From positions 1 to 63,331 of IMG/VR virus record IMGVR_UViG_3300028585_000024: a DNA stretch of 63,331 nucleotides; one strand, written 5' to 3'. This DNA comes from a virus (lineage: Duplodnaviria; Caudoviricetes). Each line of letters begins with the position of its first letter. Positions within the stretch are counted from its first letter, which is position 1. Both the position numbers and the translations under genes were made by a program. A model generated the notes under the pieces. It was not told the origin of the DNA. It saw only the letters and a list, made by a program, of their open reading frames with translations, and ran no database searches. Below, piece after piece: positions 335 to 63,331 of the stretch.

Positions 335-652
335 ATGACCAAAATGATTACTTTTCCACGGTGGGTAACGCACCCAGCCGGGCATGAATTGCCCGAGGAT
401 CGCGATGCGCTTCTGGCGCAGCGACGTGTTCGTTATATGGTGGGCTTGGCGGCGCTGCACGCCACGCCGCAAACCAGCATTGCAGCGCTTGCCGACCATT
501 GCGACATCGAACGGTCGCACATTCACGCGGCCATGCGTGACGGCCGATTCTCGTCAAAGCTGGCGCACAAGATTGAGCGTGCGTGCGGTCGCGGTGTGGT
601 CCGGCGCGAGTGGCTTATCTACCCTATGGATATCGAGGAATTGAATCTCTAA
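335..652 (+). CDS. HTH (Cro/XRE-like) DNA-binding protein
   Basis: AAGGAGG RBS; SIAALADHCDIERSHIHAAM helix-turn-helix-like segment; TAATG overlap with primase; same position as the HTH gene of Chi-like phages. Confidence 0.7.
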   Translation: MTKMITFPRWVTHPAGHELPEDRDALLAQRRVRYMVGLAALHATPQTSIAALADHCDIERSHIHAAMRDGRFSSKLAHKIERACGRGVVRREWLIYPMDIEELNL

Positions 653-3213
653 TGACCGACGAATACACTCCGAAGAACAGCGGACCTCTCGCTTATCTCG
701 GTAGCCGGCTGATCGACAATGGTTATTCGATCGTCCCAATCGCAGTTGGTAAAAAAGCGCCCGGTTTCGACAACTGGAGCAAGGCGCGTTCGACTAAACC
801 GCAACTCGACGAGTGGATCACGTCAGGGCATCGCCAGTCCGGCGCCGGCATCCTGACTAAGCACACGCCAGCGGTTGACATTGACGTACTCAACGAAGAA
901 GTCGCGCGCGAAGCTGTAGCGAAAGCGCTTGAGATCTTCGGCGAGGCACCACTTCGTATTGGCCGCGCACCGAAATGCCTGCTTTTGTTCCGCACCGAGA
1001 CCCCTTTCCGCAAGATGCGGTCCAACAAATATCAGGATGAATGGGGCGACTTGCACCAGATCGAGATCCTGGGTGAAGGTCAGCAGTTCGTGGCCTATCA
1101 CACGCACCCGGACACCGGCCTGCCGTACACCTGGCCGAATGAGAAGATCAGCGACGCCGGCAAGACGGTGAAGGCTGGCGGTCCGCTCACCATCAATGCC
1201 AACGATCTGACCGACATCACGCCCGAACAGTGCCAGGCGTTCATCGACTGGTTCGAGGCGCGCGCGGCCGAGGAAAGCGATTGGAAAATCGTGAAGAAGC
1301 GGCGCAGCGGCGACTTGGCCGACATCGACAGCGACAATCCGTTCTTGGAAGACTCGAACGCGGTCGACATCGCCGATGATGAACTGCGCAACCGCCTGAT
1401 GATGGTCCCGAACGCCGACGATTACGACACCTGGATCAATGTCGGCATGGCCCTGCACCACCAGTACGACGGCAGCGATGATGGTCTCGACTTGTGGAAG
1501 GAGTGGGCAGAGACCGCCGACAACTACGACCAGGATGCGCTGGAGCGGCGCTGGGCCGACTTTGCCATCGACGGTAAAAAGCGTGCGCCGCTCACGGCTC
1601 GCTTCATCCTGAAATTGTCGAAAGAGGCTGCGGCCGAATCGACCATTGCGCTGACCCTGAAACTGCGCGATGCGTTCAGTGCTGCGAAAGACCTGGCTTC
1701 GTGGAACAAGGCCCGCGATGCTGCGCGCGAAGCGGAGATCGACAGCCTGGCTCGCTCGGCACTTGCGACGCTGGCGAAGGATCGGCTCGACATCATCAAT
1801 GGCAGCAAAACGCCGCTGTCCGAAGTGAAGAAAGCCATCGCGTACTCGCCGGCAAAGGGTGAGAAGACGCCGAGTTGGGCGTCGCCGTTCGTGTACGACA
1901 CCACGGACGACCGCTTCTACGACACCGACCGCAAGTTCTCGACCACGCAGCAGGGATTCAATGCGATGTTCGACCGGAAGGCGATGACGAAGAAGGATCT
2001 GCTCGATGGGAAAACCACGCCGACCAGCACCGCGTCGACGCTGGCGTTGAACGTCTTCAGGATCACGGTCGTGAACGGTCGCCGGTACGAGCCGGGCGCC
2101 GACAAGATCTTCCACCGGACGGACGGCATCTTCGCCAACACCTACCCCGAGCACGAGATCCCCGAACTGCCGGATGAACTGCTGCCGCGCGACAAAGCGG
2201 CCATCAAGCGCGTGAAAAAACACGTCGGCCACCTGCTCGAAAAGCCGGAAGAACGCCGGCTGCTCGTGGACTGGCTGTCGTGGGTCGTCCAGAACCCCGG
2301 CAAGCACGCCAACTGGTCGATCCTGCTGCAAGGTGTGGAAGGCGACGGCAAGTCGTTTTTCGCATTCCTGTTGCGCGCGGTGATGGGCGTGTCGAACGTG
2401 CAGATGCTCAACGCCCATATCTTGGAGTCGCCATTCACCGATTGGGTTGTCGGCCAGTGCGTCACCTGTATCGAAGAAGTGCGGCTCATCAAGTCGACGA
2501 ACAAGTTCGAGTTGCTGAACCGGATCAAGCCTTTCATCACGAACGACGTGATCGAGGTGCATCCGAAAGGTAAGGCAACCTACGATGCGGTCAACACCAC
2601 CTCGTACCTGCTGTTCTCGAACTACCGCGATGCGCTTCCGCTGGACGATGACGGTCGGCGGTATTGCGTGCTTTTCAGCCAGTGGCAGCGCAAGGACAAG
2701 CTGGACGTGTTCAAGGCCGAAAACCCGGACTACTATGATCGGCTGTACGCGACCATCGTGACCTCGGCGCCGGCATTACGGAAGTGGTTGCTGGAGTGGG
2801 AGCAATTGGACACGTTCAAGGCGAAAGGTGATGCGCCGAACACGGATGCGAAGAAATACATGATCCGCATGGCGCAGCCCGAGTTCATCCAGAACGTGTT
2901 CGACATCATCGCCGAGGGTGATGAGCCGCTGATCTCGAACGACCTGATCGACGCGGCGAGGCTCACTGAAGTGATGATGGACCGCTCGATGGACATTCCA
3001 GGGAATAAGGCTTTCGGTGCCATGTTGTCCAGGTATCGGTTCGAGAGCATCGGAAAAGTGCGGATCGGGGGCGACGTGAGAACTTTTTACACACGCGAGC
3101 CTGAAATGTTCCAATTCCGCGATGATGGTGGCGAAATTCACGTCGACGCCGAAAAAGTTCGGCGCTTCGTTTTGTCGAAATCTGCGGAAATCGACGACGA
3201 TGACGAACTCTGA
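652..3213 (+). CDS. primase-polymerase/PriCT-2/SF3-type helicase fusion
   Basis: N-terminal prim-pol motifs (VDIDV, FVAYHTHPDTGLPYTW), PriCT-2-like DDYDTWINVGMALH, Walker A QGVEGDGKS; start taken as ATG 652, coupled to the upstream stop. Confidence 0.9.
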   Translation: MTDEYTPKNSGPLAYLGSRLIDNGYSIVPIAVGKKAPGFDNWSKARSTKPQLDEWITSGHRQSGAGILTKHTPAVDIDVLNEEVAREAVAKALEIFGEAPLRIGRAPKCLLLFRTETPFRKMRSNKYQDEWGDLHQIEILGEGQQFVAYHTHPDTGLPYTWPNEKISDAGKTVKAGGPLTINANDLTDITPEQCQAFIDWFEARAAEESDWKIVKKRRSGDLADIDSDNPFLEDSNAVDIADDELRNRLMMVPNADDYDTWINVGMALHHQYDGSDDGLDLWKEWAETADNYDQDALERRWADFAIDGKKRAPLTARFILKLSKEAAAESTIALTLKLRDAFSAAKDLASWNKARDAAREAEIDSLARSALATLAKDRLDIINGSKTPLSEVKKAIAYSPAKGEKTPSWASPFVYDTTDDRFYDTDRKFSTTQQGFNAMFDRKAMTKKDLLDGKTTPTSTASTLALNVFRITVVNGRRYEPGADKIFHRTDGIFANTYPEHEIPELPDELLPRDKAAIKRVKKHVGHLLEKPEERRLLVDWLSWVVQNPGKHANWSILLQGVEGDGKSFFAFLLRAVMGVSNVQMLNAHILESPFTDWVVGQCVTCIEEVRLIKSTNKFELLNRIKPFITNDVIEVHPKGKATYDAVNTTSYLLFSNYRDALPLDDDGRRYCVLFSQWQRKDKLDVFKAENPDYYDRLYATIVTSAPALRKWLLEWEQLDTFKAKGDAPNTDAKKYMIRMAQPEFIQNVFDIIAEGDEPLISNDLIDAARLTEVMMDRSMDIPGNKAFGAMLSRYRFESIGKVRIGGDVRTFYTREPEMFQFRDDGGEIHVDAEKVRRFVLSKSAEIDDDDEL

Positions 3214-5653: not shown

Positions 5654-6331
5654 TCACAGTTCGATGTCGGCGTAGTCGTTCGCCAGTTCTTTGCGCTTTT
5701 CGCGCAACGTCTCGATTGCCCGTTCAAGTTCGCGCCGTGCGCGGGCGTGGTGACGCATCGGGACAAGTTCGGCAATGTCGGTTTTAAGCGTGCCGCATTC
5801 GTCCGACAAGTTGCGCGCCGCGCGCCACCGTTCGCTATATTCGCGCTCGACTTCCGCCAGGCTTTCCGCTTCGCTATCGGCGGCGCTGGCCGCTTCGGAT
5901 TCGTCCGTGTAGACATCGCCGAAATACACACGTTCGTCATTATCGCTATTGTGATAACCGGCGATGAAGCGACCATGCGGCAAGCGCCCGACAATGCCGC
6001 GCACCTTATCTGAGCAATCGTCGTCCGTGTACCATCCTTTATGATTCGGCCCGCCTTCCACTTCATCTGCAAAGCGTTCACCCCTGAATTTCGGGCCTGT
6101 ATGCGTGTACCAAATGGGAACCTTCTTTTCCCATTGCGTACCGGCGTTTTCAGTGTTGAACCCTTGCGACAAGTCACCGTATGAGCCGGAACCGTTGCGC
6201 AACGTACAGTCACGCGCGGAGCGCCAGTCGGGCAGACTCTTGTTAGCGGCGCGGGCGCGCAATGCGGCCAGGCGGCGCGGCGCGTTCACGGTGCGCGAGA
6301 TAGTCAGATACAGCGGTGGAAAATGGGACAT
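5654..6331 (-). CDS. hypothetical early protein
   Basis: 225-aa ORF with AGGAG RBS; helical C-terminus ending DIEL. Confidence 0.8.
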   Translation of the reverse strand: MSHFPPLYLTISRTVNAPRRLAALRARAANKSLPDWRSARDCTLRNGSGSYGDLSQGFNTENAGTQWEKKVPIWYTHTGPKFRGERFADEVEGGPNHKGWYTDDDCSDKVRGIVGRLPHGRFIAGYHNSDNDERVYFGDVYTDESEAASAADSEAESLAEVEREYSERWRAARNLSDECGTLKTDIAELVPMRHHARARRELERAIETLREKRKELANDYADIEL

Positions 6332-16724: not shown

Positions 16725-17354
16725 ATGGCCGGGTTAAACTATGAGACCGAGAACTCGCAAAAGATCATCAAGCAGATCCTTGCGTTCCTTCTCGGCCGGC
16801 CGCGTGAAGGCGCGACCCTGAAACAGATCCAGTCGATGCTCGGAGCAAGCCACGGCACCGCGCATCGTTTCGTGAACTACCTCACCGAACGCAACAAGAT
16901 CCACGTATCGGTCGAGGCGAAGGCAACACAGCAGGGCCACACGCCCGCGTACTACAGGCTCGGATACCGGATCATCACACCGATGATCCCCGGCATGCAG
17001 TACCGGGACATTCCACTCAATTTTTTTGGACCAAAAACCATGAACATCGACATATCGGAGCACTTGCCGGCGATGAGCGAATACATGAACGCCAGCGAGT
17101 TCCATCCTGCTCGCATCGGCGCCTACCAATGCGTGATGACCGGCGCGTTCGACGACGGCAGCGGCGTGACGCACATGCGCTGGTGGGACGGCGAGGACTG
17201 GTCGTATCCGCTCCAACCCGACCACGAAGACCTGGACGGCAACTACCTGAAGCCGGAAGCATCGTACTTCGTGAACGGCGACGAAGACGAACGCACCGAG
17301 TACCTGACTCGCTTCGCATGGCGCGGATACGCGGAAGATCCCGATCCATTGTAA
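16725..17354 (+). CDS. winged-HTH protein in frame with a second acidic domain (possibly two genes; second start at 17040)
   Basis: ATLKQIQSMLGASHGTAHRFVNYL is wHTH-like; T7 run at 17021-17027 just before the internal ATG. Confidence 0.65.
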   Translation: MAGLNYETENSQKIIKQILAFLLGRPREGATLKQIQSMLGASHGTAHRFVNYLTERNKIHVSVEAKATQQGHTPAYYRLGYRIITPMIPGMQYRDIPLNFFGPKTMNIDISEHLPAMSEYMNASEFHPARIGAYQCVMTGAFDDGSGVTHMRWWDGEDWSYPLQPDHEDLDGNYLKPEASYFVNGDEDERTEYLTRFAWRGYAEDPDPL

Positions 17355-18020: not shown

Positions 18021-18139
18021 AATGGGCCATGCTCGGCACCTTCATCGCGGGCATGGTCGGTCTCGGCTGGCTGATTGACCAGTGGGTCGACAACAAATAC
18101 AACCCGGAGAAACACCATGAACAAAAAGCGCAACGCTGA
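18017..18139 (+). CDS. 40-aa membrane peptide
   Basis: GAGGA RBS; ATGA overlap; hydrophobic N-terminus. Confidence 0.55.
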   Translation: MKWAMLGTFIAGMVGLGWLIDQWVDNKYNPEKHHEQKAQR

Positions 18140-18326
18140 CCCGGACATTCTGATGCCGCACGACCGGCACGGCCGTCCACCTGTAGCGTGGCTGATCGAA
18201 TCGCCGACCACCGGCAAGGTCTTCATGACCGAGAAGGCCGAGGTGGCAGAGAAGCGTTACCTGGCCGACGATCACGTCACCCCGTACCACTCGAAGAACG
18301 ACCCAGCCGAAGAGGACGAACTGTAA
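18117..18326 (+). CDS. hypothetical protein (ends EEDEL)
   Basis: GGAGA RBS; TAATG coupling to rdgC. Confidence 0.7.
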   Translation: MNKKRNADPDILMPHDRHGRPPVAWLIESPTTGKVFMTEKAEVAEKRYLADDHVTPYHSKNDPAEEDEL

Positions 18327-19315
18327 TGGCAAAGGCAATCAAAAACATCAAGGCGTTCATCCCGCTCACCGTGAACGATGCGCTGTTCAAGTGGTGCAAG
18401 CGCGCCGTGAAGGACAGCAACGCGGCACGCGAGGCGGTCGCCAACTTCATCGCCCGCGATCCGGGCAACAGCGAATGGCAGCACCTCGGGATCACCGAAG
18501 TCATGCCTGGCGAAGATGCTGTCGTCCACGATCTCGACGGCGCCGGCTTCCTCTTCATGTACCGCCACGCCGAGCGCAAGCTGCCGGCATCGGTGCGCGA
18601 CGAGGAACTGAAGAAACGCTATGACGCCCTGGTCGAGAAGGAAGGTCGCCCGCTGAACAAGCGTGAGTTCGCCCAACTGCGCGAGGACGTGGAAGTTGCG
18701 CTGCTGCCGAAAGCCTTCATCGTGCCGAAGACGATCCCGGTGATCGTGACGAAGAATCGCCTGTTCCTCTGCACCTCCAGCGCGTCGATGGCCGAGAAGA
18801 TCTTGACCCACCTGATGCGCCTGTGCGAGACCCGCAAGGTAGCGCTGGACTGGTCGGACATGCTGACCGCCGTGTCGCCGTCGACCATGCTCACGCAGAT
18901 CGTTCGCGATGGCATTATCGACGGCAATGCCGACAGCAGCGTGCATCTGCATCCGAGCCGTGCAGCCGTGTTCAAGGGTTCCGACAAGCGCGCCGTGCGT
19001 GTAAAGGATCGCGATCTGGCGCACGAGGAATTCAAGAGCATCGTGAACAGTGGCGAGTACGCCGTCACCGAGCTGCTGATGACCCTGAACAATGAAGATG
19101 GCGTCACCGCGTCTACCTTCACGATGACCGATAAATTCATCTTCAAGGGCATCAAACTCGGCGACGTGATCGTGGCCGGCAGCGGCGTTGATGCGGCCGA
19201 TTTGCACGCGACTTACTGGCTTTTCGCCAAAGAGATCGAGCGCATTCTGAAGGCCACGCACTACGCCTACCTGGATGGTCAGGATGCGCCGGACGACGAA
19301 GAAGACGAACTCTAA
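18326..19315 (+). CDS. rdgC: recombination-associated protein RdgC-like
   Basis: ERKLPASV..EL...EGRPL.KRE..QLREDV...LLPKAF signature. Confidence 0.85.
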   Translation: MAKAIKNIKAFIPLTVNDALFKWCKRAVKDSNAAREAVANFIARDPGNSEWQHLGITEVMPGEDAVVHDLDGAGFLFMYRHAERKLPASVRDEELKKRYDALVEKEGRPLNKREFAQLREDVEVALLPKAFIVPKTIPVIVTKNRLFLCTSSASMAEKILTHLMRLCETRKVALDWSDMLTAVSPSTMLTQIVRDGIIDGNADSSVHLHPSRAAVFKGSDKRAVRVKDRDLAHEEFKSIVNSGEYAVTELLMTLNNEDGVTASTFTMTDKFIFKGIKLGDVIVAGSGVDAADLHATYWLFAKEIERILKATHYAYLDGQDAPDDEEDEL

Positions 19316-19334
19316 ATACCTCGGGAAAGCATTC

Positions 19335-19574
19335 ATGCCACGCGATAAGACAGCCGACCAACAGACCCGCGTTCTCGTGGAAAAGATGAAGCGCATGCTG
19401 CCAGGTCAGTCGTTCTTCGTGCCGGACGTGAAGCGCGCCGACATGGAATTTCTGCGGCGCCCGGTGGTCAAGGCCGGCGTAGGTATCCGCATCGCTCAGG
19501 TCGAGGAAGACGAGATCTACTTCCAGCCTGGCGTGCGGATCTGGCGTGAAGAGGGCGAGTACGATGAACTCTGA
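19335..19574 (+). CDS. small putative DNA-binding protein (ends EYDEL)
   Basis: M.PGQSFFVP...GVRIWR motif pair seen in small phage proteins. Confidence 0.7.
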   Translation: MPRDKTADQQTRVLVEKMKRMLPGQSFFVPDVKRADMEFLRRPVVKAGVGIRIAQVEEDEIYFQPGVRIWREEGEYDEL

Positions 19575-19755
19575 AGAGAGCGAGGTCGAGCGCTTGCGCC
19601 GGCATGAGCGGATCGCCTGGGAGCACGCCGAGGCATTCAAGGCACTGATGCACGGAATGCAGGATGAACTGGATGAAGCGCGCACTACGGTCAAACGCCA
19701 GCGAGCAATCATCGCTAAACTGGAGGGGCAGCTAGGAATAGATCAAGAACTGTAA
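19564..19755 (+). CDS. coiled-coil hypothetical protein (ends IDQEL)
   Basis: GAGGG RBS; overlaps the upstream gene end. Confidence 0.65.
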   Translation: MNSEESEVERLRRHERIAWEHAEAFKALMHGMQDELDEARTTVKRQRAIIAKLEGQLGIDQEL

Positions 19756-19761
19756 AAGCAC

Positions 19762-19782
19762 TAACAAGTAAAAACCCTGTCA
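19762..19782. promoter_or_regulatory. dyad operator copy
   Basis: TAACA-AGTAAAAACCC-TGTCA in the intergenic gap. Confidence 0.7.
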
Positions 19783-19810
19783 CATCATTTACATAAAGGA
19801 AGTACCCATC

Positions 19811-20245
19811 ATGGCAAAATCGAAAACCAAGACCGCAACCGCAGCGGCATTCCCGGCCAAGGCTTCGCCGAAAGCTGTCGCAAAGCTGGCTGACCGCGCC
19901 GACGCGCAAGTGAAGAAGCCGACCCGCGCGAAGAAAGTCGTCGCAGCGAAGCCGCCCGCCGTCGTCGCCAAAGCCGGCAAGCTTCTCGCTGCTGATCCGA
20001 AAGGCGTGCCGGGCGTGAAGGCCATTCCAGCGTTGCCGAACCCGCGTTTGCGCACCGTGAAGGACACCGGCTTGGCGTCGCACGAGGCGACCAGTGTGGC
20101 GGAACTGGCGAAGCTGCTCGCCGACTTCCCGCGCGGCTCGACCTTCCTGCTCGCCGGCTCGAACATCGACATCTACAACCTGCGCGGCAAAATGATCGCC
20201 ACGATCCGCCAGGTCGCCAAGCCGGTCAAAGGCGCGAAGAAGTAA
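19811..20245 (+). CDS. Lys/Ala/Pro-rich, histone H1-like basic protein
   Basis: AAGGA RBS; N-terminal half rich in K, A and P. Confidence 0.7.
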   Translation: MAKSKTKTATAAAFPAKASPKAVAKLADRADAQVKKPTRAKKVVAAKPPAVVAKAGKLLAADPKGVPGVKAIPALPNPRLRTVKDTGLASHEATSVAELAKLLADFPRGSTFLLAGSNIDIYNLRGKMIATIRQVAKPVKGAKK

Positions 20246-20298
20246 TCCAGTAACCCCGGCCGGCGCCAGTCGTCGGCCACCTCTCACAAGGGACTGCA

Positions 20299-20583
20299 AT
20301 GAAAAATTTCGTGACCTACCTGAAGGCGCTTATGATTGCCGCGCTGATCTGGATCGGGGTCTACGTCAGCACCATGGGCGCGCTCACGGCCGGTTTCACG
20401 TTCAGCCTGATCCTGCTCGTCGTCGGCCTGGTCCTGCTGTTCATCGGCGTGCTGATGGCCGCGTCGCTGCTCCAGCGCTCGAACGACAAGTGGCTGCGCG
20501 GCCTGCTTGTGCTCCTGCTGTCGGTCGGCACGGTGATCGCGCTGCGCGCCATGGAAGGCGTTCACTGGACCAAGGGATTCTGA
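20299..20583 (+). CDS. membrane protein (3 predicted TM segments)
   Basis: three hydrophobic helices; AAGGGA RBS. Confidence 0.75.
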   Translation: MKNFVTYLKALMIAALIWIGVYVSTMGALTAGFTFSLILLVVGLVLLFIGVLMAASLLQRSNDKWLRGLLVLLLSVGTVIALRAMEGVHWTKGF

Positions 20584-20584
20584 T

Positions 20585-20938
20585 ATGACCATGCAAGAGA
20601 AAACGGTGCGCGTGACGTTCACTCGCGACGACCTGACCCGCAATGCCAAGAACCCGGAAGGGAACGAGGTGTTGGCCTCGCGCGTCATCTACGGGCGCCT
20701 GCGCTCGATGGGCGTGCCGGTAATCGGCAACCTGGGCGTCATCGCTGTTGAGTGGGGCAAGCTGACCATCACGCACGACGACGGCCTGGACGGCGACGAG
20801 TGGACCTGGGAATACACCGGCAAGCTGCTCGACCCGCACTGGATCGGCGTCGTCACCAAGCCGGGCCGCGCGATGCGCTTGGACCAACCGCTCGCCCCGC
20901 AGATCGCGCGCAAGGCTGCGGAGGATGACGAGCTATGA
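20585..20938 (+). CDS. hypothetical protein (ends EDDEL)
   Basis: 117-aa ORF with ATGA coupling to the next gene. Confidence 0.75.
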   Translation: MTMQEKTVRVTFTRDDLTRNAKNPEGNEVLASRVIYGRLRSMGVPVIGNLGVIAVEWGKLTITHDDGLDGDEWTWEYTGKLLDPHWIGVVTKPGRAMRLDQPLAPQIARKAAEDDEL

Positions 20939-21237
20939 GCGTCTACAGCCCGTTGAACTGGAAGCCGCGCCCGGTGTGCCAACTGCCGCGCGAGACGGTG
21001 TTGTCGGCCAAGCCTGGTTCGCCAGCGCACACCGGGCGCGCGAAGGCGATGAAGATTGCCGGCATTGAGGTGATCGTGATCGGCCGGAACATGGCCGAGT
21101 TGGAGAAAGTCTTCATCCACGTCGAGTCGCACCTGCACGGCGGCGAAGCCAACATGCCCGAGCAGTTCATCGCCATGCTCTCGCCCGAGGTCGCGGTGGT
21201 CGCAAAAGAATCGCTGATCTACGACGACGAACTGTAA
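20935..21237 (+). CDS. hypothetical protein (ends YDDEL)
   Basis: GGAGG RBS; last rightward gene. Confidence 0.75.
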   Translation: MSVYSPLNWKPRPVCQLPRETVLSAKPGSPAHTGRAKAMKIAGIEVIVIGRNMAELEKVFIHVESHLHGGEANMPEQFIAMLSPEVAVVAKESLIYDDEL

Positions 21238-48440: not shown

Positions 48441-48785
48441 TTACAGGTCGTCGTCGCCGACTTTAGGATCAGCCTTGCTGCCCGCCTTTGCAGGAGCAGG
48501 GTTCTTGCCGGTGCCGGTGGTTGGCGAGGTAGCCGCGCCCTTCGGTGCAGGAACCGATGCGTCCAGGTTGGCCGCACTGTCGCCAGCGTTCACGACGCCG
48601 CCGAGGTTCACGTTGGTAACGGTCTCTTCTTCGTTGACCGTCTTGCGCAGCGCGTCCTTGCCGCCAGTGGCTTCGATTTCCTTGATCTGCGCGGTGGTCA
48701 GTTCATAGGTTTTGCCTGGCTTCAGGACTTGGCGTTTGCCGTCGATGTGCATGACGATGGACATGGTGGGAATGCGTTTTGGCAT
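48441..48785 (-). CDS. small protein after capsid gene (gpFI position; ends GDDDL)
   Basis: GGAGA RBS; low-complexity C-terminal half. Confidence 0.6.
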   Translation of the reverse strand: MPKRIPTMSIVMHIDGKRQVLKPGKTYELTTAQIKEIEATGGKDALRKTVNEEETVTNVNLGGVVNAGDSAANLDASVPAPKGAATSPTTGTGKNPAPAKAGSKADPKVGDDDL

Positions 48786-53774: not shown

Positions 53775-55841
53775 TTAGGCCATGGCCTTCGCCATGTCGG
53801 CAAAATTCACGGCCGATTTTACAGTATTCCCATAGGGCTTCTCCTGCTCAGGGGTGCGGATAAAATCGTTGGTATTCCAGTCCGCAGCCCACGATGGCGG
53901 GTTGGCCCAATCAATCGACTCGATGCGGCAGTACCGCGACACGCAAAGACCGATGGCGTAATACGACAAGTCCCATGTTTCGTTGCGCACGTTGCCGTTA
54001 TGCTCCCAACCCTTCGGCGTGCGTGTCTCGGCGCACAGTTCGACGTACACCTGCATCGGCAACCACTCGGGCGTGCGGAACATGCCCTTGCCCGGCTCCA
54101 TGCAATTCAGGCGCGCGTCGAGGTCATCCTTCAGGATCGTCGGGTTGAAGAACAGCACCGGGATATCGCCGCGCGCGCCGGCCTTCGAGTCTTTGCGATT
54201 GCTGTCGGGGAAGTGGATGTGTGCGCGCGGTTGGCCCGGCTTACCTTCACCCTTCGTCAGCACGAATCGGTGGTGGCGGTTCATCTTCACCAGCTTGCGC
54301 CAGAAGTTGTACGCCTGGGTCGTCGCGCCGGCCTCACCCGCCGAGTCGCAGCCGGTCAACTTGATCGACATGAGACGCCCTGAGCCATCGTCCAGTGGGT
54401 ACTCGCGGTCCATCACCTGCTCGATCAGCAGATCCCAATCCTCGGCGTAGGTCGCCGGCTTGAGCGGCAGCGGGTCGCCGTCATCATCGCGCCGCGCGGA
54501 CTTCTCGATGTCGAAGCGGTCGATCAGCACCATGTCGAATGGCGCGCCAGGCATGATGCCTGTGATCTGGACTGCGAAGGAGCGGATCTGCACGTCGACG
54601 GTGGCGACGAGGAAGCGCACGCCTTCCGGCACAACATGCTTGCCCAGCATTGCCTCGGCGCCGGCCTTCAGATCTTCCGGCAGGCGAATGTCGGAGCGAG
54701 CACGGCTGTAGTACGGCTCGCCCAAGTCATTGTTGTAGAACTTCTTCAGCGACTCTTCCGTCTTCGTGCGCTCGAAGTCGTCGACCGCATCCAGGTAGGT
54801 CACGAGCAGCTTCTTCCACGACACGAACGCTGCGGCCACGCCACGCAACCAGAACGATGCGATCAGCGTGCGGATACCGCGACCGAACTTTTTGCCGCGC
54901 GCGTCGATGGCCTCGCCGTCCTTGACCCACTGGCCCCAAAGGTTCATTTCGTGGCGGTCGTCCGGGTGAATCGGCTCGGCGCATTTCGGGCATTCCATCC
55001 GCACGGTTTCGGCCACGTCCAGGTTCGAGTAGCCTGGCTTGCGGTCGTACTTCAGCATTTCAAACTTGCCCTCGAAGTAGTGGTCGCAATGCGGACAGGG
55101 CCAGTACCAGCGGCGCCGGTCGCCACGGTTGTACAGGCCGATGATGCCGTCGCATGGCGGCGCTTCGTGCGGCGTGCGCGCGATCCACTTCATGTCCTTC
55201 ACCTCGCGCGACGGCGACGACTCGGCCACACACATCGCGTTCGAGCCGAACGTGGTGGTCCGCTTATACGCCAGGTCGAATGGCTCACCGTCGCCGTCCA
55301 CGTCATCCGGCATGCGGTCACGGTCGGTCAGCACCACGCGGCCAATCGGCTTACCTGCCAGTTCGGTCGGCGTCGGCCAGGACAGCGACAGCATCATTCC
55401 GGTGTTGTACAGCTTGTCGAATTTGTTGTCGTTGTCGGCGCCCGGCAGCAGCATCTTGCCCACCTCGGGCGAGTAGCGGTTCAGGCGGTCGATCCGTCGC
55501 ATGGAGAAGTCGCGCGCCGCCGTGTTGGTGGGGCAAACGATCATCATGTCCATCGGGTCGATCTTGATCGAGTAAAGGGTCGTGTTGATGACCAGGCCAT
55601 CGGTCTTGGCCGACTGCGCAGGGCCGACAAAAATCATGCCGGTGAAGTCGGTCGACGCGAACACGTTCATCGGCTCGACCATGTATGGCGTGGTCTGGTT
55701 GAACCATGGGCCGACGTATGCGCCTGGGCTGTTGACAATGCGGTACTTGCTCGCGGCGTCGGCGACGGTGGTGCGTTCCGGTGGGCGCAGCATTTCCGCG
55801 CAGGCCAGCGCGATCTGTTCTACGGAATTAAAGTTCATCAT
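53775..55841 (-). CDS. terL: terminase large subunit (GpA family)
   Basis: TPYMVEPM, GPAQSAKT, ESSP, CPHC/CPKC, TVDVQ, RNETWD. Confidence 0.93.
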   Translation of the reverse strand: MMNFNSVEQIALACAEMLRPPERTTVADAASKYRIVNSPGAYVGPWFNQTTPYMVEPMNVFASTDFTGMIFVGPAQSAKTDGLVINTTLYSIKIDPMDMMIVCPTNTAARDFSMRRIDRLNRYSPEVGKMLLPGADNDNKFDKLYNTGMMLSLSWPTPTELAGKPIGRVVLTDRDRMPDDVDGDGEPFDLAYKRTTTFGSNAMCVAESSPSREVKDMKWIARTPHEAPPCDGIIGLYNRGDRRRWYWPCPHCDHYFEGKFEMLKYDRKPGYSNLDVAETVRMECPKCAEPIHPDDRHEMNLWGQWVKDGEAIDARGKKFGRGIRTLIASFWLRGVAAAFVSWKKLLVTYLDAVDDFERTKTEESLKKFYNNDLGEPYYSRARSDIRLPEDLKAGAEAMLGKHVVPEGVRFLVATVDVQIRSFAVQITGIMPGAPFDMVLIDRFDIEKSARRDDDGDPLPLKPATYAEDWDLLIEQVMDREYPLDDGSGRLMSIKLTGCDSAGEAGATTQAYNFWRKLVKMNRHHRFVLTKGEGKPGQPRAHIHFPDSNRKDSKAGARGDIPVLFFNPTILKDDLDARLNCMEPGKGMFRTPEWLPMQVYVELCAETRTPKGWEHNGNVRNETWDLSYYAIGLCVSRYCRIESIDWANPPSWAADWNTNDFIRTPEQEKPYGNTVKSAVNFADMAKAMA

Positions 55842-56424
55842 CGTCCCCCTTCACTTCAGCGATCATCATTTCGGACTCTTCGATCACGTCCATGTTCGTC
55901 GGATGCGTCGAGAAGGCTTCGAGGATTGTGCGGTACGCCTCTTCCAGCATGCCGTCGGCTTGCGACTTCACGATCTGCCGCTGGCGGTCGCTCAATTCAG
56001 CCTGTCGATCCACCTGGTCGCTCATCAGGCGTGCGCTCATTTTAATCAGCTTCATGATGCCGCCCATGACCTCGACCACGCGCGTAGTAGGCCACAGGTT
56101 GCCTTCTCTCTGCTCGTATTCCTGGCGTGACCGCAGGCCGGCCCAAAACTCTTTCGTCAGGTGCTTCGGCAGATCGTTGTGGTGCATCCGCTTGATGTAT
56201 TCCTCGATCTCGTAGGCCGGCTTCACGATGTACGGCGCCACCTCGTTCACCGCGTAGATGTCGACGCCGTTGCGAGTACCGCATGGCTTGCATCCACCTT
56301 TCGTCAGCTTCTCGACCAGGACGCGGTGATCCATGCGGAACAGCGAGCCGAGTTGCGACAGGTTTGCTCCGTCGTACAAGATCGCCTTGGTGATGTCGTC
56401 AGTTTGTTCAGTTCGTTTTGCCAT
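55828..56424 (-). CDS. terS: terminase small subunit (DUF1441-like; ends GDDDEL)
   Basis: N-terminal HTH; LPKHLTKEFW; overlaps the terL start. Confidence 0.8.
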   Translation of the reverse strand: MAKRTEQTDDITKAILYDGANLSQLGSLFRMDHRVLVEKLTKGGCKPCGTRNGVDIYAVNEVAPYIVKPAYEIEEYIKRMHHNDLPKHLTKEFWAGLRSRQEYEQREGNLWPTTRVVEVMGGIMKLIKMSARLMSDQVDRQAELSDRQRQIVKSQADGMLEEAYRTILEAFSTHPTNMDVIEESEMMIAEVKGDDDEL

Positions 56425-56698: not shown

Positions 56699-58429
56699 TC
56701 AAAGTTCGTCTTCGTCCTCGTCGTCCGACACCGCGCTCGTATCGGACAGAATCTCGACCACGGCGTCCCACTCGGCATCGCCAGGCTTCGCGGCCTTGCG
56801 GTTCTTGAGCAGCTTGCGCAGCTTCTTCCGCATCCGCTTGAGCAGGCGGAACAGCATGTCTTGCGCGTCGTCCTTCGCCAGCAGCGCCTTCACCACCACC
56901 TCGTCGAGCGTGTCGGCGCACACGATAGAGAACACGGTGACGCGGTGCTTCTGACCCTGGCGCGCGAGCCGGCCGATAAACTGTTTATACAGTTCCAGCG
57001 ACCATGGAATGTCGTACCACACAACGATGTGTCCGCCCACTTGCAGGTTCAGGCCATGACCGCCCGACTTCGGGTGCATGGCGAGGATCGGGATCTTCCC
57101 CTTATTCCATGGCTTCACGCACTTGCCGTCAGCGTCCATGAACGTGATCTTGTCGCCGTAGCGATTCTTCAGGCGGTCCTTCGACGAGCGGTGGCTGTAG
57201 CCGACCAGGATCGGCTTGCCTTGCGCCTCTTCGATGATCTGGTCCAGCATTTCCAATTTATGCGTGTGGATCGGGTGGACTTTCTTGATCTTGACAAAAT
57301 CGTCGTCCTCGCTCTGCCCTGGCTTCAGTTCGGTCTCGTACAGGACACCGGATGCCATTTGCAGCAGCTTCGCCGACAGGGCCGCAGCGGTATCGGCCGT
57401 GACCTCGCTGCCGTCGTCGAGCGTCACCACCATGTCCTGCTCCATCTTCATGTACAGGGCGCGCTGGGCCTCGTTCATGCGGACCTCGCGCGTCACGTAG
57501 ACAGGTGGTACGCGCGGCAGATAGTCCTCTTCCTTCATGACCAGGCAGATGTCGGAGATCTTCGCCACGATCTCTTTCTCGGCATCGGGTCGCAGATCCC
57601 ATTTGCGGCTGTACTTGTTCTCTGTGAAGTATTTGCCCCGGTACGCGGTGATGTTGCGGCCAAGCCGCGCGCCGCGATCCAGCAGGTAGATCTGAGGGAA
57701 CAAGTGAATGTAGCTTTCCGCTGCCGGTGTCGCCGTGAGCAGGTGCATGCGCGTGATGGCGCCGGGCGTGTCGCGAACGGCTTGCAGCGCTTTGAAGCGC
57801 CCCGATTCATGGTTCTTGAACTGGCTCGACTCGTCGATGATGACGGTGCGGTACGGCCACTTCCGCCCCGACTTCGGATGCCAGTACTGAACGATCCACT
57901 CAATCCAGTCGCTGCTGATGACGTGAACAGACGCGCTGTTCAGTGTTCCCTCGACGCGGATCTTCTCGCGTTCAGCGGCCACCTCTGCCGTAGCGCCCCG
58001 CTGCGCGTCTTTCGCCTTCTCGGACTGGAACAGACCCGAACTATTGGCGCGCGCGGCTTCGCGGCCCCTTCTCGCGGCTTCCTTGAGGCGCGGATCATCC
58101 TCGTCGACGTGGATAATCGAGAGATTCAGGTGCGCCAGGTGGTTCCACTTCCTGAATTCGTCCGGCCAGGTCTGTGTGGCGACGCGCAGCGGCCCGATGA
58201 TGAGCACCTTGCCGTCGTGATCCAGGTCCGCCAACAGATCCGCGATCAGCGTCGCCGACGTGACCGTCTTACCCAGGCCCATGTCGATGAACAGCGCCGA
58301 GAACGGATTTTTCTTCATGAACTCCAGGCCGGTGTTCTGGTATCCGTGCATCTGCTCGCGGTGCAGTTCGACCTCGCTGAATTTCCCCTTCAGCCATGCG
58401 GCAATTTCTCTCGCAATCATTTTTGTCAT
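56699..58429 (-). CDS. SNF2-family helicase (ends EDEDEL)
   Basis: DMGLGKT, IIDES, LTATP, GHGLNLQ, QFIGRLARQGQ. Confidence 0.92.
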   Translation of the reverse strand: MTKMIAREIAAWLKGKFSEVELHREQMHGYQNTGLEFMKKNPFSALFIDMGLGKTVTSATLIADLLADLDHDGKVLIIGPLRVATQTWPDEFRKWNHLAHLNLSIIHVDEDDPRLKEAARRGREAARANSSGLFQSEKAKDAQRGATAEVAAEREKIRVEGTLNSASVHVISSDWIEWIVQYWHPKSGRKWPYRTVIIDESSQFKNHESGRFKALQAVRDTPGAITRMHLLTATPAAESYIHLFPQIYLLDRGARLGRNITAYRGKYFTENKYSRKWDLRPDAEKEIVAKISDICLVMKEEDYLPRVPPVYVTREVRMNEAQRALYMKMEQDMVVTLDDGSEVTADTAAALSAKLLQMASGVLYETELKPGQSEDDDFVKIKKVHPIHTHKLEMLDQIIEEAQGKPILVGYSHRSSKDRLKNRYGDKITFMDADGKCVKPWNKGKIPILAMHPKSGGHGLNLQVGGHIVVWYDIPWSLELYKQFIGRLARQGQKHRVTVFSIVCADTLDEVVVKALLAKDDAQDMLFRLLKRMRKKLRKLLKNRKAAKPGDAEWDAVVEILSDTSAVSDDEDEDEL

Positions 58430-58713
58430 CGCATCAACTCCATAAATTCTTCCATGTTATCCATTACGTAGACCTCGGCGCCGTGCTCACGCATTTCACG
58501 GATGCGGACCACCTGGATCGCCGACAGGCCAGTCTCGCCGCGTCCCGGCCGCTTCCACTCGATCCACACGTAGCGGCCACGGCGCAGGTACATGCGATCC
58601 GGCAGGCCGTTGAACGTCGGCGATTCCACCTTGAACGTGAACCAGCCGCGACGCTCTGCATATTTGTGCGCCTCACTGGTGTTATGGCTTTCCAGCTTCG
58701 GCTTAATCATCAT
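58426..58713 (-). CDS. VRR-NUC domain nuclease
   Basis: GLPDRMYL, WIEWKRPG, LSAIQ. Confidence 0.85.
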   Translation of the reverse strand: MMIKPKLESHNTSEAHKYAERRGWFTFKVESPTFNGLPDRMYLRRGRYVWIEWKRPGRGETGLSAIQVVRIREMREHGAEVYVMDNMEEFMELMR

Positions 58714-60966: not shown

Positions 60967-61614
60967 TTACAGGTCGTCTTCGTCACCGTCGTCGTCACCG
61001 GCATCGGGATCGGCAACATCGTCCCATGCGCCGGAATCGTCGATGCGACCTTGACCGAACGCCTTGTCGTCTTTGGAGAACAGAGCGCCGACCAAGCCGG
61101 CATTGATGCGCTTGCCGTGCTCATTGTTCTGCACCCATGGGCGAATCAGCATGTGGCCCCAGGCGCCACCGTAAAAGAGTTCGGTGATCTTTTCGAGGTC
61201 GTCGACCGGATCGAGCTTCTTACCTTGCTTGTCGCGCAGCGAAGGACGATTCGTCTCACGAGCGTTGACGAAGTACATGCCGGCGTAGGTGTTCTCGGTC
61301 TTCGCATCATCATCATCGTCGTCCATGCCCGAATTGGCATCGCCATCGCGAAGGAATTTCATGTTCGATGCGACGGTGATTTTCGCGTCTGCCGCCAATT
61401 GCTTCATGACTTTCGCGATGGCGACCTTCGCCTCTTCGTGAGTCTCTTTCGGCATGAGGCCGGTCAGGCTGAACTTCGGCACACCCTTGTCCGTTTCCTT
61501 CTTCCATGCCTTGTCGACGTGAGGGTAGGAGAACCGAACATTGTCGATGCGGATCACGCCTTCGTTGTAGATGACGTAATTTTTACCGCGCGATTTAACA
61601 GTCAATGCAGCCAT
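60967..61614 (-). CDS. DUF2815-type single-stranded DNA-binding protein (ends DEDDL)
   Basis: VRFSYPH, LRDGD, FYGG, acidic tail. Confidence 0.85.
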   Translation of the reverse strand: MAALTVKSRGKNYVIYNEGVIRIDNVRFSYPHVDKAWKKETDKGVPKFSLTGLMPKETHEEAKVAIAKVMKQLAADAKITVASNMKFLRDGDANSGMDDDDDDAKTENTYAGMYFVNARETNRPSLRDKQGKKLDPVDDLEKITELFYGGAWGHMLIRPWVQNNEHGKRINAGLVGALFSKDDKAFGQGRIDDSGAWDDVADPDAGDDDGDEDDL

Positions 61615-62965: not shown

Positions 62966-63331
62966 TTACAGGTCGCCGTCGTCGCCGGCATCGTCGTCTT
63001 CACCGGCCAGTTTTTTCGTGGCGGCGTCGAAGACCAACTTCAGCTTGTCGTCAGGGATCTCGGCCATCTTCGCGACGCCGGCCAGGGCAACCAGTGGCTT
63101 CGCTTCGGCGGCACCCTGTTCGTCCTTGATCTTGGTGAGCAGCGCGACGACTTCTTCGCGGGTCGGGCCTTTCGGCGCGGTGGTTTTGCCCTTGCCGGTG
63201 GTGGTGGTCTTGCCGGTGGTCTTGCCGGTGGTGGTGGTCGCTGCGGCGTCGGCTGCGACGTTATCGGTCGATGCTGCGGCGCCGCCGAGGGCTGCGGTGT
63301 TTGCGTTCAGTGCTGCGATCAGGTTTTGGAT
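62966..63331 (-). CDS. acidic, low-complexity protein (start at 23 across the junction; ends DDGDL)
   Basis: open frame IQNLIAALNANTAALGG...TTTTGKTTGKTTTTGK...AGEDDDAGDDGDL* not in the ORF track. Confidence 0.8.
   Translation of the reverse strand: MQNLIAALNANTAALGGAAASTDNVAADAAATTTTGKTTGKTTTTGKGKTTAPKGPTREEVVALLTKIKDEQGAAEAKPLVALAGVAKMAEIPDDKLKLVFDAATKKLAGEDDDAGDDGDL

What the first reader, a model, noticed from the sequence alone, without database searches (positions are those of the whole stretch)
18117..21237. Genome-wide C-terminal acidic-Leu tag (-DDEL/-EDEL/-DDDL) on at least 12 unrelated proteins
Seen in sequence: primase-helicase (DDDDEL, stop 3213), 18117 (EEDEL), RdgC (EEDEL), 19335 (EYDEL), 19564 (IDQEL), 20585 (EDDEL), 20935 (YDDEL), 48785 (GDDDL), TerS (DDDEL), SNF2 helicase (EDEDEL), SSB (DEDDL) and the junction gene (DDGDL). 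Weaker variants are EDPDPL (17354), ADIEL (5654) and IEELNL (652). Six of the last eight rightward genes carry it; capsid, decoration, tail and lysis proteins do not. The terminal Leu uses different codons (CTC, CTG, CTA, CTT), so the constraint looks protein-level rather than a DNA repeat. Established: acidic tails ending in a hydrophobic residue act as docking motifs (bacterial SSB-Ct, T7 gp2.5), and C-terminal residues control Tsp/ClpXP turnover. Inference: a shared address tag that docks replication, packaging and accessory proteins on one hub, or sets their stability. I know of no description of this, but could not search.
Basis: partly seen in the sequence, partly recalled or inferred. 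Interest (0 to 1): 0.88.

Follow-up and report, generated by a model that had tools for sequence, protein, structure and literature searches.

The report
Shared acidic C-terminal tail on phage proteins
About a dozen unrelated DNA-replication, recombination and packaging proteins of this phage and its whole family end in the same short acidic tail capped by one greasy residue, and that cap changes in step across the proteins from lineage to lineage, which points to one still unknown docking partner.

Summary
In my gene calls, 13 of 76 window proteins end in an acidic stretch plus Leu, against 0.30 expected (P 6e-18).

The constraint is on the protein. Codons vary and no DNA repeat is shared. 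In seven close relatives 79 of 81 orthologs keep the tail. The last four residues are 70-88% identical, while the preceding ones are 30-40%.

The trait runs through the Casjensviridae-like family. It sits on primase-helicase, RdgC, gp2.5-type SSB, TerS, exonuclease, SNF2 helicase and small early proteins, never on virion proteins.

The cap is lineage-specific and changes together in unrelated proteins: Leu here, Val in Chi, Enc34 and Seifer, Ile in A18P4, Gly-Leu in BcepNazgul. Agreement within genomes is 0.89 against 0.48 when shuffled. Nine unrelated phages show no enrichment. T7 yields only its two known tails.

Best reading: a docking tail read by one co-evolving hub, like the T7 gp2.5/gp4 and T4 gp43/gp55/gp33 tails but on far more proteins. 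The hub is not identified and no binding is shown. I rate it a new variant of a known kind.

The parts
652..3213 (+). Primase-helicase (Prim-Pol, PriCT_2, DUF5906). Ends DDDDEL.
   Evidence: Pfam and PHROG phrog_1156. Tail. 25 of 35 orthologs in relatives carry an acidic+hydrophobic tail.
5654..6331 (-). 225-aa protein of unknown function (phrog_8188). Ends YADIEL. Weak or atypical tail.
   Evidence: 5 of 12 orthologs are tailed. In the Val-type phages this family ends ..VEI or ..IEV, so it may be a family-specific end rather than the shared tail.
16725..17354 (+). 209-aa protein with weak HTH matches. Ends EDPDPL (weak variant).
   Evidence: 7 of 7 orthologs end in Leu with an acidic context.
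18117..18326 (+). 69-aa early protein with no family match. Ends AEEDEL.
   Evidence: 5 of 5 orthologs are tailed. In G1 the preceding residues differ entirely but EEEDEL is kept.
18326..19315 (+). RdgC homolog. Ends DEEDEL, about 20 residues beyond the Pfam RdgC domain.
   Evidence: PF04381 E 2e-27, covering residues 29-309 of 329. 24 of 24 orthologs are tailed.
19284..19574 (+). 96-aa protein (phrog_7200). Ends GEYDEL.
   Evidence: 12 of 19 orthologs are tailed.
19564..19755 (+). 63-aa protein. Ends GIDQEL. Its coding score is low.
   Evidence: 5 of 5 orthologs are tailed.
20585..20938 (+). 117-aa protein (phrog_31589). Ends AEDDEL. Its stop overlaps the next start (ATGA).
   Evidence: 8 of 8 orthologs are tailed.
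20935..21237 (+). 100-aa protein, the last gene of the rightward block. Ends IYDDEL.
   Evidence: 6 of 6 orthologs are tailed. No downstream gene within 60 nt.
48441..48785 (-). 114-aa DUF7443 protein between the major capsid gene and the head-tail connector genes (the position of lambda FI, by recall). Ends VGDDDL.
   Evidence: PF24227. 11 of 12 orthologs are tailed. In Seifer the syntenic gp18 ends ADEEV.
55828..56424 (-). Small terminase subunit. Ends GDDDEL. Its last 14 nt overlap the TerL start.
   Evidence: phrog_141 E 2e-40. In 51 of 54 TerL-centred loci a TerS end was read: 49 end in Leu and 2 in Ile. 27 of 31 whole-genome orthologs are tailed.
56699..58429 (-). SNF2-family helicase. 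Ends EDEDEL.
   Evidence: Pfam SNF2-rel_dom and Helicase_C. 13 of 36 orthologs are tailed. G1 and G3 have a different, longer end that still finishes YDEL.
58703..60895 (-). Divergent family B DNA polymerase. Ends EDDDDD, an acidic run with no hydrophobic cap.
   Evidence: phrog_1252 E 5e-167. In more distant relatives the polymerase ends C.KC..[DE]xL.
60967..61614 (-). T7 gp2.5 / Enc34 ORF6-type single-stranded DNA-binding protein. Ends GDEDDL.
   Evidence: PF10991 E 1e-19, phrog_112. PDB 5ODJ E 2e-39. AlphaFold2 core pLDDT above 90, tail residues 205-215 below 50. 30 of 35 orthologs are tailed.
62966..63331 (-). 'Junction' gene (phrog_7721, unknown function), cut by the end of the record. 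Ends GDDGDL.
   Evidence: A homolog was found in 29 of the 37 genomes listed, the window included.
437..652 (+). 71-aa protein (phrog_7401). Ends IEELNL. Weak, probably not part of the system.
   Evidence: Only 2 of 15 orthologs are tailed.

Best explanation
The tail is a short linear docking motif at the free C-terminus. It is a disordered run of Asp/Glu ending in one small hydrophobic residue with its free carboxylate. It has been added to most of the phage's non-virion DNA-handling proteins: primase-helicase, gp2.5-type SSB, RdgC, SNF2 helicase, in many relatives the Cas4-like exonuclease and the polymerase, the small terminase, an FI-position head-module protein and several small early proteins.

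I infer that all these tails are read by one binding site, or very few. That site would have a basic surface for the acidic run and a pocket for the cap. It would gather or hand over these proteins at replicating and packaging phage DNA.

The cap differs between lineages yet is uniform within a genome. Candidates are the DNA-binding groove of the SSB, the polymerase and the helicase.

Shown here: the motif, its enrichment, its purifying selection, its restriction to DNA-metabolism and packaging proteins, and its concerted change.

Inferred: that it binds anything, and what it binds.
For: 1. Enrichment. 13 of 76 proteins against 0.30 expected. 17 of 19 genomes of the IMG/VR clade have P below 1e-3 under the strict tag. 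13 of 19 named relatives have P below 1e-3 for acidic + any hydrophobic cap. 0 of 9 unrelated phages reach P below 0.05 on that test.

2. Protein-level selection. Mixed codons, and the longest exact DNA string shared between tails is 12 nt, mean 6.5. 79 of 81 orthologs in seven close relatives keep a tail. Identity at the last four residues is 0.88, 0.84, 0.74 and 0.70, against 0.27-0.46 at positions 6 to 20 from the end. Untagged proteins are flat at 0.31-0.46.

3. Client set. Tail counts per orthologous family over 36 relatives: RdgC 24/24, SSB 30/35, TerS 27/31, primase 25/35, exonuclease 17/36, SNF2 13/36, DUF7443 11/12. TerL, portal, protease, capsid and tape measure are each 0/36.

4. 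Concerted change of the cap in unrelated proteins:
- ..DEV in Chi, Enc34, Redjac and Seifer
- ..DEI in A18P4 (11 proteins)
- ..DEL in phiWae15 (13) and the window clade
- ..DDxL in SNUABM08
- ..ESL in G10
- ..DDPAAGL in BcepNazgul (GL x10) and G017 (GL x7)
- ..DDLLG in RpoS-V7
- ..LV in RcExplorer
Agreement of the terminal residue between different families within a genome is 0.893 against 0.475 when shuffled (0 of 10,000 shuffles reach it). With 7 lineages it is 0.877 against 0.360.

5. The cap is not set by host taxon. Two Aeromonas phages use Ile and Leu. Enterobacterales phages use Val, Ile/Phe, x-Leu or Leu.

6. Precedents.
- The window's SSB is a homolog of Enc34 ORF6. In the crystals the tail of that protein lies in the concave sheet of a neighbouring molecule (PMC5686142, passages).
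- The T7 gp2.5 tail anchors on the polymerase's front basic patch. PDB 6P7E holds a DTDF peptide that mimics the gp4 tail (PMC12339929, passages).
- T4 gp43, gp55 and gp33 share interchangeable hydrophobic-acidic C-termini that bind the gp45 clamp (PMC2988020, passages).
- My pipeline recovers exactly the two known T7 tails, those of gp2.5 and gp4.
Against: No interaction was demonstrated and no reader was identified.

No conserved, never-tailed replication protein stands out as the hub. SSB, primase, RdgC and often the polymerase are themselves tailed.

RdgC presence tracks the tail-rich state: by BLAST it is in 24 of 27 tail-rich genomes and 0 of 6 tail-poor ones. With the Pfam model it also appears in G017 and PM87, but it is absent from tail-rich G020 and pCB2051A. 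It therefore cannot be an obligatory reader.

RcExplorer has a shared ..LV end on 7 proteins but no detectable gp2.5-type SSB. This weakens the SSB-groove idea.

A similar ..DDDPAAGLV end occurs in Bordetella phage BMP-1, from another family. Its likeness to BcepNazgul's ..DDPAAGL could point to a host-linked reader.

The shuffle test ignores relatedness, so its count is not a probability. The number of independent cap changes is about 8-10.

JC01 and phiAxp-2 each use two caps: Phe or Met on SSB, SNF2 and the junction homolog, and Ile or Leu on the rest. There may be more than one reader.
Confidence: 0.6

Rival explanations
1. Self-inhibiting DNA mimic. Each tail folds back on the DNA-binding surface of its own protein or its own oligomer, as proposed for T7 gp2.5 and seen for Enc34 ORF6. 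It would tune DNA affinity or single-strand specificity, with no shared reader.
For: Nearly all identified carriers are DNA-binding proteins. Removing the Enc34 ORF6 tail lets the protein bind dsDNA. In the crystals the tails lie in neighbours' DNA-binding sheets (PMC5686142, passages).
Against: Unrelated DNA-binding folds have no reason to demand the same capping residue, or to change it together between lineages. Several carriers are small proteins with no detectable DNA-binding domain. AlphaFold2 does not dock the SSB's own tail: residues 205-215 have pLDDT below 50. That is a weak point, since disorder is also expected for a tail that binds in trans.
Confidence: 0.15
2. Turnover tag. The tail is read by a protease or its adaptor, either as a degron that clears replication and packaging factors on schedule, or as an anti-degron that shields their ends.
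For: C-terminal residues control proteolysis in bacteria, and acidic ends are protective in E. coli (both recalled, no call). The set includes many early proteins whose amounts might need timing.
Against: Known bacterial C-terminal degrons are non-polar over the last 3-5 residues (recalled), whereas these ends are acidic with a single hydrophobic cap. Host proteases are conserved, but the cap differs between phages of one host genus. TerS and the FI-position protein are late and needed to the end, yet carry it. A pure shield would not need a conserved hydrophobic last residue.
Confidence: 0.12
3. The reader is a host protein, for example a replication or repair factor that normally reads the host SSB tip. 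The phage proteins would be mimics that hijack or block it.
For: The general form, acidic run plus terminal hydrophobic residue, is that of the bacterial SSB tip (recalled..DDDIPF). One relative, G020, encodes an 88-aa protein ending exactly ..DDDIPF. BcepNazgul and Bordetella phage BMP-1, from different families, share a ..DDPAAGL(V) end.
Against: No window tail has the Pro-Phe end. Caps differ among phages of one host genus and among Enterobacterales phages. Within-genome uniformity implies a narrow reader that changes quickly, which is unlike conserved host replication proteins.
Confidence: 0.2
4. Nucleotide-level by-product. The ends would reflect ribosome-binding sites of downstream genes, a termination context or a DNA repeat, not protein function.
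For: GAN-rich ends can contain GAGG-like cores. The penultimate Glu is GAA in 80 of 110 tails against 47% GAA in the background. That hints at some added constraint on the mRNA.
Against: Only 3 of 13 tails contain an SD-like core, against 19 of 63 untagged ends. 6 of 13 have no downstream gene within 60 nt. Asp codons GAC and GAT, which cannot form an SD, dominate. Leu uses four codons and no DNA string longer than 12 nt is shared. D/E exchanges and cap changes follow amino-acid classes. The phage has no tRNA genes.
Confidence: 0.03

Closest known systems
Acidic C-terminal tails of phage T7 gp2.5 (SSB) and gp4 (primase-helicase), which dock on the gp5 DNA polymerase
   Same: Here too the SSB (a gp2.5/Enc34-type homolog) and the primase-helicase end in an acidic run with a hydrophobic last residue. 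My pipeline finds exactly these two tails in T7. The T7 tails share one site, the front basic patch of gp5 (PMC12339929).
   Different: T7 has two carriers, while this family has 10-16 per genome, including TerS, RdgC, exonuclease, SNF2 helicase and small proteins. The cap is aliphatic (Leu, Val or Ile), not Phe. The polymerase is family B, not T7-like family A with a thioredoxin-binding domain.
Phage T4 sliding-clamp 'toolbelt': the similar hydrophobic-acidic C-termini of gp43, gp55 and gp33 bind gp45
   Same: Functionally unrelated proteins share an interchangeable C-terminal epitope, joined by a divergent linker, that docks on one hub (PMC2988020). The window's tails likewise follow poorly conserved residues.
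   Different: No clamp gene was detected in the window by Pfam or PHROGs. The T4 epitopes have several hydrophobic residues, while the window's tails have one. T4 has three carriers, not a dozen.
Bacterial SSB C-terminal tip (..DDDIPF, recalled), which recruits many partners
   Same: An acidic, disordered tail whose last hydrophobic residue and free carboxylate are the binding determinants.
   Different: The topology is inverted: in bacteria one tail meets many readers, and here many tails presumably meet one reader. The Pro-Phe end is absent.
Enc34 ORF6 (PDB 5ODJ, 5ODK, 5ODL), the solved SSB of a family member
   Same: It is a direct homolog of the window's SSB (E 2e-39). Its tail is acidic, and the reverse primer printed in the paper implies that it ends ..WDEDEV. 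My call on the Enc34 genome agrees.
   Different: The paper treats the tail as a feature of the SSB alone. In the passages I read it does not say that other proteins of the phage carry the same end.

Membership tests
T7-type SSB with acidic C-terminal tail (gp2.5 / Enc34 ORF6, PF10991) | gp2.5/Enc34-type OB-fold core | tested here: met
   PF10991 E 1.4e-19 and phrog_112 E 1.9e-35. PDB 5ODJ E 2e-39. AlphaFold2 core pLDDT above 90.
T7-type SSB with acidic C-terminal tail (gp2.5 / Enc34 ORF6, PF10991) | Disordered acidic C-terminal segment | tested here: met
   The SSB ends DPDAGDDDGDEDDL. Residues 205-215 have pLDDT below 50.
T7-type SSB with acidic C-terminal tail (gp2.5 / Enc34 ORF6, PF10991) | Terminal aromatic residue (Phe in T7), essential for function | tested here: not met
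   The last residue is Leu here, and Val, Ile, Met or Phe in relatives.
T7-type SSB with acidic C-terminal tail (gp2.5 / Enc34 ORF6, PF10991) | The tail binds the phage polymerase and helicase | not testable with these tools
   No binding assay was available.
T4-like clamp-binding C-terminal epitopes | Several unrelated proteins share a hydrophobic-acidic C-terminus behind a variable linker | tested here: met
   13 of 76 proteins. The linker positions are poorly conserved.
   No clamp family appeared among the Pfam and PHROG hits for the window proteins scanned. Many small proteins have no hit at all, so a divergent clamp is not excluded.
Bacterial SSB-Ct mimic | C-terminal ..D-D-D-[IL]-P-F (recalled consensus) | tested here: not met
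   No window protein ends in Pro-Phe. Only one protein, in relative G020, ends DDDIPF.
Beta-clamp-binding motif (QL[SD]LF / QLxLxL, recalled) | Gln plus two or three spaced hydrophobic residues | tested here: not met
   The window's tails have a single hydrophobic residue. Carli's ..LDLDGL ends look closer to the motif but were not tested.
C-terminal degrons of the ssrA / ClpXP type (recalled) | Non-polar last three to five residues | tested here: not met
   The last five residues hold 2-4 acidic residues.
Eukaryotic ER-retrieval signal (KDEL, HDEL, DDEL; recalled) | Secretory-pathway protein read by the KDEL receptor | tested here: not met
   This is a tailed phage of bacteria, and the carriers are cytoplasmic DNA enzymes. 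The likeness is in letters only.

The most novel reading that the evidence does not exclude
Casjensviridae run a private C-terminal address code. One phage-encoded hub reads an acidic tail whose cap is specific to the lineage. The hub might be SSB-coated DNA acting as a scaffold or condensate, or a ring-shaped toolbelt such as RdgC. In this way it would assemble replication, recombination and packaging-initiation proteins into one DNA factory. Concerted switching of the cap (Leu, Val, Ile, Gly-Leu, Leu-Val) would keep the factories of related co-infecting phages from cross-talking. The same logic may exist outside the family, as in Bordetella phage BMP-1.
Probability: 0.3. Interest if true: 0.85.

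Novelty: new variant of a known kind. Interest (0 to 1): 0.72.

Why it matters
Docking tails are known for two proteins in T7 and three in T4. Here one motif marks 10-16 proteins per genome across a large phage family that includes Chi, Enc34 and many Salmonella, Klebsiella, Pseudomonas and Burkholderia phages. It links replication and recombination enzymes with the small terminase.

If one reader exists, it is an unrecognised organising centre of these phages. Finding it would show how replication is coupled to packaging.

The tail also gives a one-line sequence rule. It flags which of the many unknown small early proteins belong to the DNA factory.

The lineage-specific caps are a natural set of orthogonal peptide-pocket pairs, which could be used for engineering.

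Six literature searches found no description of this pattern. The library lacks most subscription journals, so that absence is not proof.

Tried and rejected
1. Complex prediction of the SSB core (residues 1-190, 18-row alignment) with the last 49 residues of TerS (15-row alignment). Result: no verdict, score 0.01 against a mark of 0.32, controls not run. It says nothing either way.

2. AlphaFold2 of the full SSB, to see whether its own tail docks. The tail is simply low-confidence, which is uninformative about binding in trans.

3. Phyletic search for a gene present in tail-rich genomes and absent from tail-poor ones. RdgC scored best by BLAST, in 24 of 27 against 0 of 6. It is itself always tailed, is absent from two tail-rich genomes, and the contrast is confounded by relatedness. 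I rejected it as an obligatory reader.

4. Two tail sub-classes (SSB plus junction protein against the rest). These are seen in JC01 and phiAxp-2, but overall the last two residues agree in 9 of 29 pairs against 14 of 49, which is no difference.

5. The idea that the trait follows the gp2.5-type SSB into other families. Xfas53, phiCDKH02 and NatCom_34192 have that SSB but no shared end. BMP-1 has a ..LV end on 5 proteins. Mixed result.

6. DNA repeat, SD overlap and tRNA explanations were rejected.

7. Megablast of the region against named phages found nothing. The closest relatives are unnamed IMG/VR records.

9. Pfam scans of 20 further early proteins gave one DUF and nothing that looks like a peptide-binding domain.

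Full report
**What the window is.** The window is a whole or nearly whole virus record of 63,331 bp (CheckV 97% complete) at about 61% G+C. Its head genes resemble those of Burkholderia, Achromobacter, Pseudomonas and enterobacterial Casjensviridae at 65-70% nucleotide identity. Its TerL is 40-60% identical in protein to 348 named phage records, among them Chi, Enc34 and Redjac. No named phage matches the flagged region by megablast.

No gene finder was installed. I therefore called genes with a codon-usage model trained on the long high-GC3 frames, which gave 76 genes. C-termini depend only on stop codons. The ORF tool gives the same ends for 18100-21240.

I defined the tag as last residue Leu, penultimate Asp or Glu, and at least two acidic residues in the four before Leu. 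Under that definition 13 of 76 proteins are tagged. The same pattern occurs 73 times in 18,756 internal windows, so 0.30 are expected (P 5.7e-18). A stricter form gives 10 against 0.13.

The carriers are:
- the primase-helicase
- RdgC
- a gp2.5/Enc34-type SSB (PF10991; PDB 5ODJ, E 2e-39)
- an SNF2 helicase
- the small terminase
- a DUF7443 protein that sits where lambda has FI (position by recall)
- the gene cut by the record's ends
- six proteins without a known function, five of them small (63-117 aa) and one of 225 aa

The family B polymerase ends in EDDDDD, without a cap. No virion or lysis protein is tagged.

**It is a protein-level constraint.**
- The 13 tails use GAC, GAT, GAA and GAG, and four Leu codons.
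- The longest exact string shared by any two tails is 12 nt, mean 6.5.
- Only 3 of 13 contain an SD-like core, against 19 of 63 untagged ends.
- 6 of 13 have no gene downstream within 60 nt.
- There are no tRNA genes.

Two IMG/VR relatives (RdgC 73-76% identical) have 13 tagged genes each, and the orthologs correspond. In seven relatives of the clade, 79 of 81 orthologs of tagged proteins keep an acidic-hydrophobic end. Identity to the window is 0.88, 0.84, 0.74 and 0.70 at the last four residues, and 0.27-0.46 at positions 6 to 20 from the end. In untagged proteins it is flat at 0.31-0.46.

Some ends were rebuilt and still finish the same way. The SNF2 helicase of G1 ends ..GPGSDCYDEL where the window has ..SDDEDEDEL. 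The 69-aa protein's ortholog ends ..AAELEEEDEL against ..KNDPAEEDEL.

**It is a family trait.** In 54 TerL-centred loci from IMG/VR (TerL 53-93% identical):
- A TerS end could be read in 51. Of these, 49 end in Leu and 2 in Ile.
- An SSB end could be read in 38. Of these, 36 end in Leu and 2 in Ile.
- The portal (50 read) and the VRR-NUC-like endonuclease (42 read) do not follow this pattern.

I then examined 18 whole genomes plus one partial genome of the clade, the window included. The strict tag occurs 0-14 times per genome against 0.2-0.4 expected, and 17 of the 19 have P below 1e-3.

I next took 19 named relatives and widened the definition to an acidic stretch plus any hydrophobic last residue. 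Thirteen of the 19 have P below 1e-3.

Nine phages outside the family were run through the same pipeline: T7, H66, PA8, VHML, mEp213, BMP-1, Xfas53, phiCDKH02 and NatCom_34192. None reaches P below 0.05 on this test. In T7 the pipeline returns exactly gp2.5 and gp4, the two known cases.

**Which proteins carry it.** The table gives tail counts per orthologous family over 36 relatives. The partial genome G11 and the controls were left out, and the window was the query.

| Family | Tailed / orthologs found |
|---|---|
| RdgC | 24/24 |
| SSB | 30/35 |
| TerS | 27/31 |
| Primase-helicase | 25/35 |
| Cas4-like exonuclease | 17/36 (not tailed in the window) |
| SNF2 helicase | 13/36 |
| DUF7443 protein | 11/12 |
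| 96-aa phrog_7200 protein | 12/19 |
| W-type polymerase | 4/18 |
| TerL, portal, protease, major capsid, tape measure | 0/36 each |

The set is therefore the non-virion proteins that work on phage DNA, from replication through recombination to the start of packaging.

**The key new result: the cap changes in concert.** The last residue is uniform within a genome and differs between lineages.

| Phage or clade | Shared end |
|---|---|
| Window clade, phiWae15, UF_RH7, SS2019XI | ..D[DE]L |
| Chi, Enc34, Redjac, Seifer | ..DDEV, on primase, RdgC, TerS, SSB and exonuclease |
| A18P4 | ..D[DE]I, on 11 proteins |
| SNUABM08 | ..DDxL |
| G10 | ..ESL |
| JC01 | Phe on three proteins, Ile on five |
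| phiAxp-2 | Met on three proteins, Leu on nine |

An unbiased scan for over-represented terminal dipeptides finds these ends without any prior definition. It also recovers shared ends in genomes that my definition had missed:
- BcepNazgul: GL on 10 proteins (0.45 expected, corrected P 1e-8), typically ..DDPAAGL
- G017: GL on 7
- Carli: GL on 8 (..LDLDGL)
- RpoS-V7: LG on 7 (..DDLLG)
- RcExplorer: LV on 7

Across six protein families in 20 representative genomes, two different families of one genome share the last residue in 0.893 of 169 pairs. I chose the 20 out of 37, dropping close relatives and genomes without tails by the definition. The shuffled value is 0.475, and 0 of 10,000 shuffles reach the observed one. 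With seven lineages it is 0.877 against 0.360. The shuffles ignore relatedness, so the real weight lies in the roughly 8-10 separate switches, each of which affects five or more unrelated proteins.

**What this implies.** Independent proteins do not change the same residue together unless something common reads it. The cap is not fixed by host. Two Aeromonas phages use Ile and Leu, and Enterobacterales phages use Val, Ile/Phe, x-Leu or Leu. This favours a reader encoded by the phage.

Against that, Bordetella phage BMP-1, of another family, has five proteins ending ..LV, one of them ..DDDPAAGLV. That resembles BcepNazgul's end and could reflect a host-linked reader or an exchanged gene module.

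**Comparison with known systems.**
- In T7, the gp2.5 tail anchors on the front basic patch of the polymerase. PDB 6P7E contains a DTDF peptide that mimics the gp4 tail (PMC12339929, passages read).
- For Enc34 ORF6, a homolog of the window's SSB, the tail lies in the concave sheet of neighbouring molecules in the crystal, and removing it lets the protein bind dsDNA (PMC5686142, passages read).

The window's system works like these but has four to six times more carriers, includes packaging proteins, and has no identified reader. I therefore file it as a new variant of a known kind, not as a member of the T7 or T4 systems. The T7 aromatic cap and the T4 clamp were both tested and not met.

- The complex prediction (SSB core with TerS tail) gave no verdict.
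- AlphaFold2 leaves the SSB tail disordered.
- RdgC is the gene whose presence best tracks tail-rich genomes. By BLAST it is in 24 of 27 tail-rich genomes and 0 of 6 tail-poor ones. With the Pfam model it is also found in G017 and PM87 but not in G020, G022, pCB2051A, G016, BcepNazgul, Suzuki, RpoS-V7 or RcExplorer. It is always tailed itself, two tail-rich genomes lack it, and the contrast follows relatedness.
- RcExplorer has a shared end but no detectable gp2.5-type SSB.
- Pfam and PHROG scans of the window's proteins show no clamp, TPR or PDZ-like domain.

**Rivals.**
- A self-inhibiting DNA mimic in each protein fits the DNA-binding nature of the carriers and the Enc34 data, but not the concerted cap changes.
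- A turnover tag is not excluded, but the ends are acidic rather than non-polar, and the cap varies between phages of one host.
- A nucleotide-level cause is rejected. One loose end remains: the penultimate Glu is GAA in 80 of 110 tails against 47% in the background.

**Literature.** Six full-text searches found no description of a proteome-wide tail in these phages. Most subscription journals are not in the library.

**Verdict.** The docking reading is the best supported (0.6) but rests on comparative evidence alone.

Noticed in passing
G020:C1:52205-52471 (-), within L120: An 88-aa protein of a relative ends ..KFIDDDIPF. That is the canonical bacterial SSB tip (recalled consensus) on a small non-SSB protein, so it may be a decoy or a hijacker of host SSB partners.
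   Followed up: no
window, last codons of the 13 tagged genes, and the same in 13 relatives: The penultimate Glu of the tails is GAA in 80 of 110 cases, against 47% GAA among internal Glu codons. In the window it is 9 of 10. The orthologs are not independent, and the cause is unknown.
   Followed up: partly
window 1-23 and 62966-63331 (-): The reverse complement of bases 1-23 reads MIETLIK, like the N-termini of the junction gene's homologs in G1 and G2. The gene therefore spans the record's ends. The two parts do not join in frame, and there is no terminal repeat of 11-200 nt. A few bases seem to be missing.
   Followed up: partly
Bordetella phage BMP-1 (AY526908.1), e.g. 25734-26318 (-), 34300-35556 (+), 35729-36277 (+): Five proteins of this unrelated podophage end in ..LV (0.19 expected, corrected P 6e-4). 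One ends ..DDDPAAGLV, close to BcepNazgul's ..DDPAAGL. Shared C-terminal ends may exist outside the Casjensviridae.
   Followed up: partly
L109:13875-14609 (-) and L117:692-1435 (-), the SSBs of G022 and G017: These SSBs carry a basic RSSRR-rich insert between two acidic runs before the final ..DGL or ..AAGL.
   Followed up: no
window 55828-55841: The last 14 nt of TerS, which encode its tail, overlap the first codons of TerL in another frame. This tail is therefore under double coding constraint.
   Followed up: no
window 58703-60895 (-) and 51790-53493 (-): The polymerase ends EDDDDD and the portal ends REEEDE. These are acidic ends without a hydrophobic cap. Polymerases of more distant relatives end C.KC..[DE]xL instead.
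   Followed up: partly
window 4103-10000 (-) and 25103-27259 (-): A block of leftward genes inside the rightward early region, and a 718-aa frame in the tail-fibre region, have a lower third-position G+C (0.59-0.73 and 0.61, against about 0.8). They have few or no orthologs in relatives, so they look like recently acquired accessory or host-range genes.
   Followed up: no
Cronobacter phage JC01 and Achromobacter phage phiAxp-2: Each uses two caps. Phe or Met is on the SSB, the SNF2 helicase and the junction-gene homolog. Ile or Leu is on TerS, RdgC and others. This may mean two readers in these lineages. No such split is seen across the family as a whole.
   Followed up: partly
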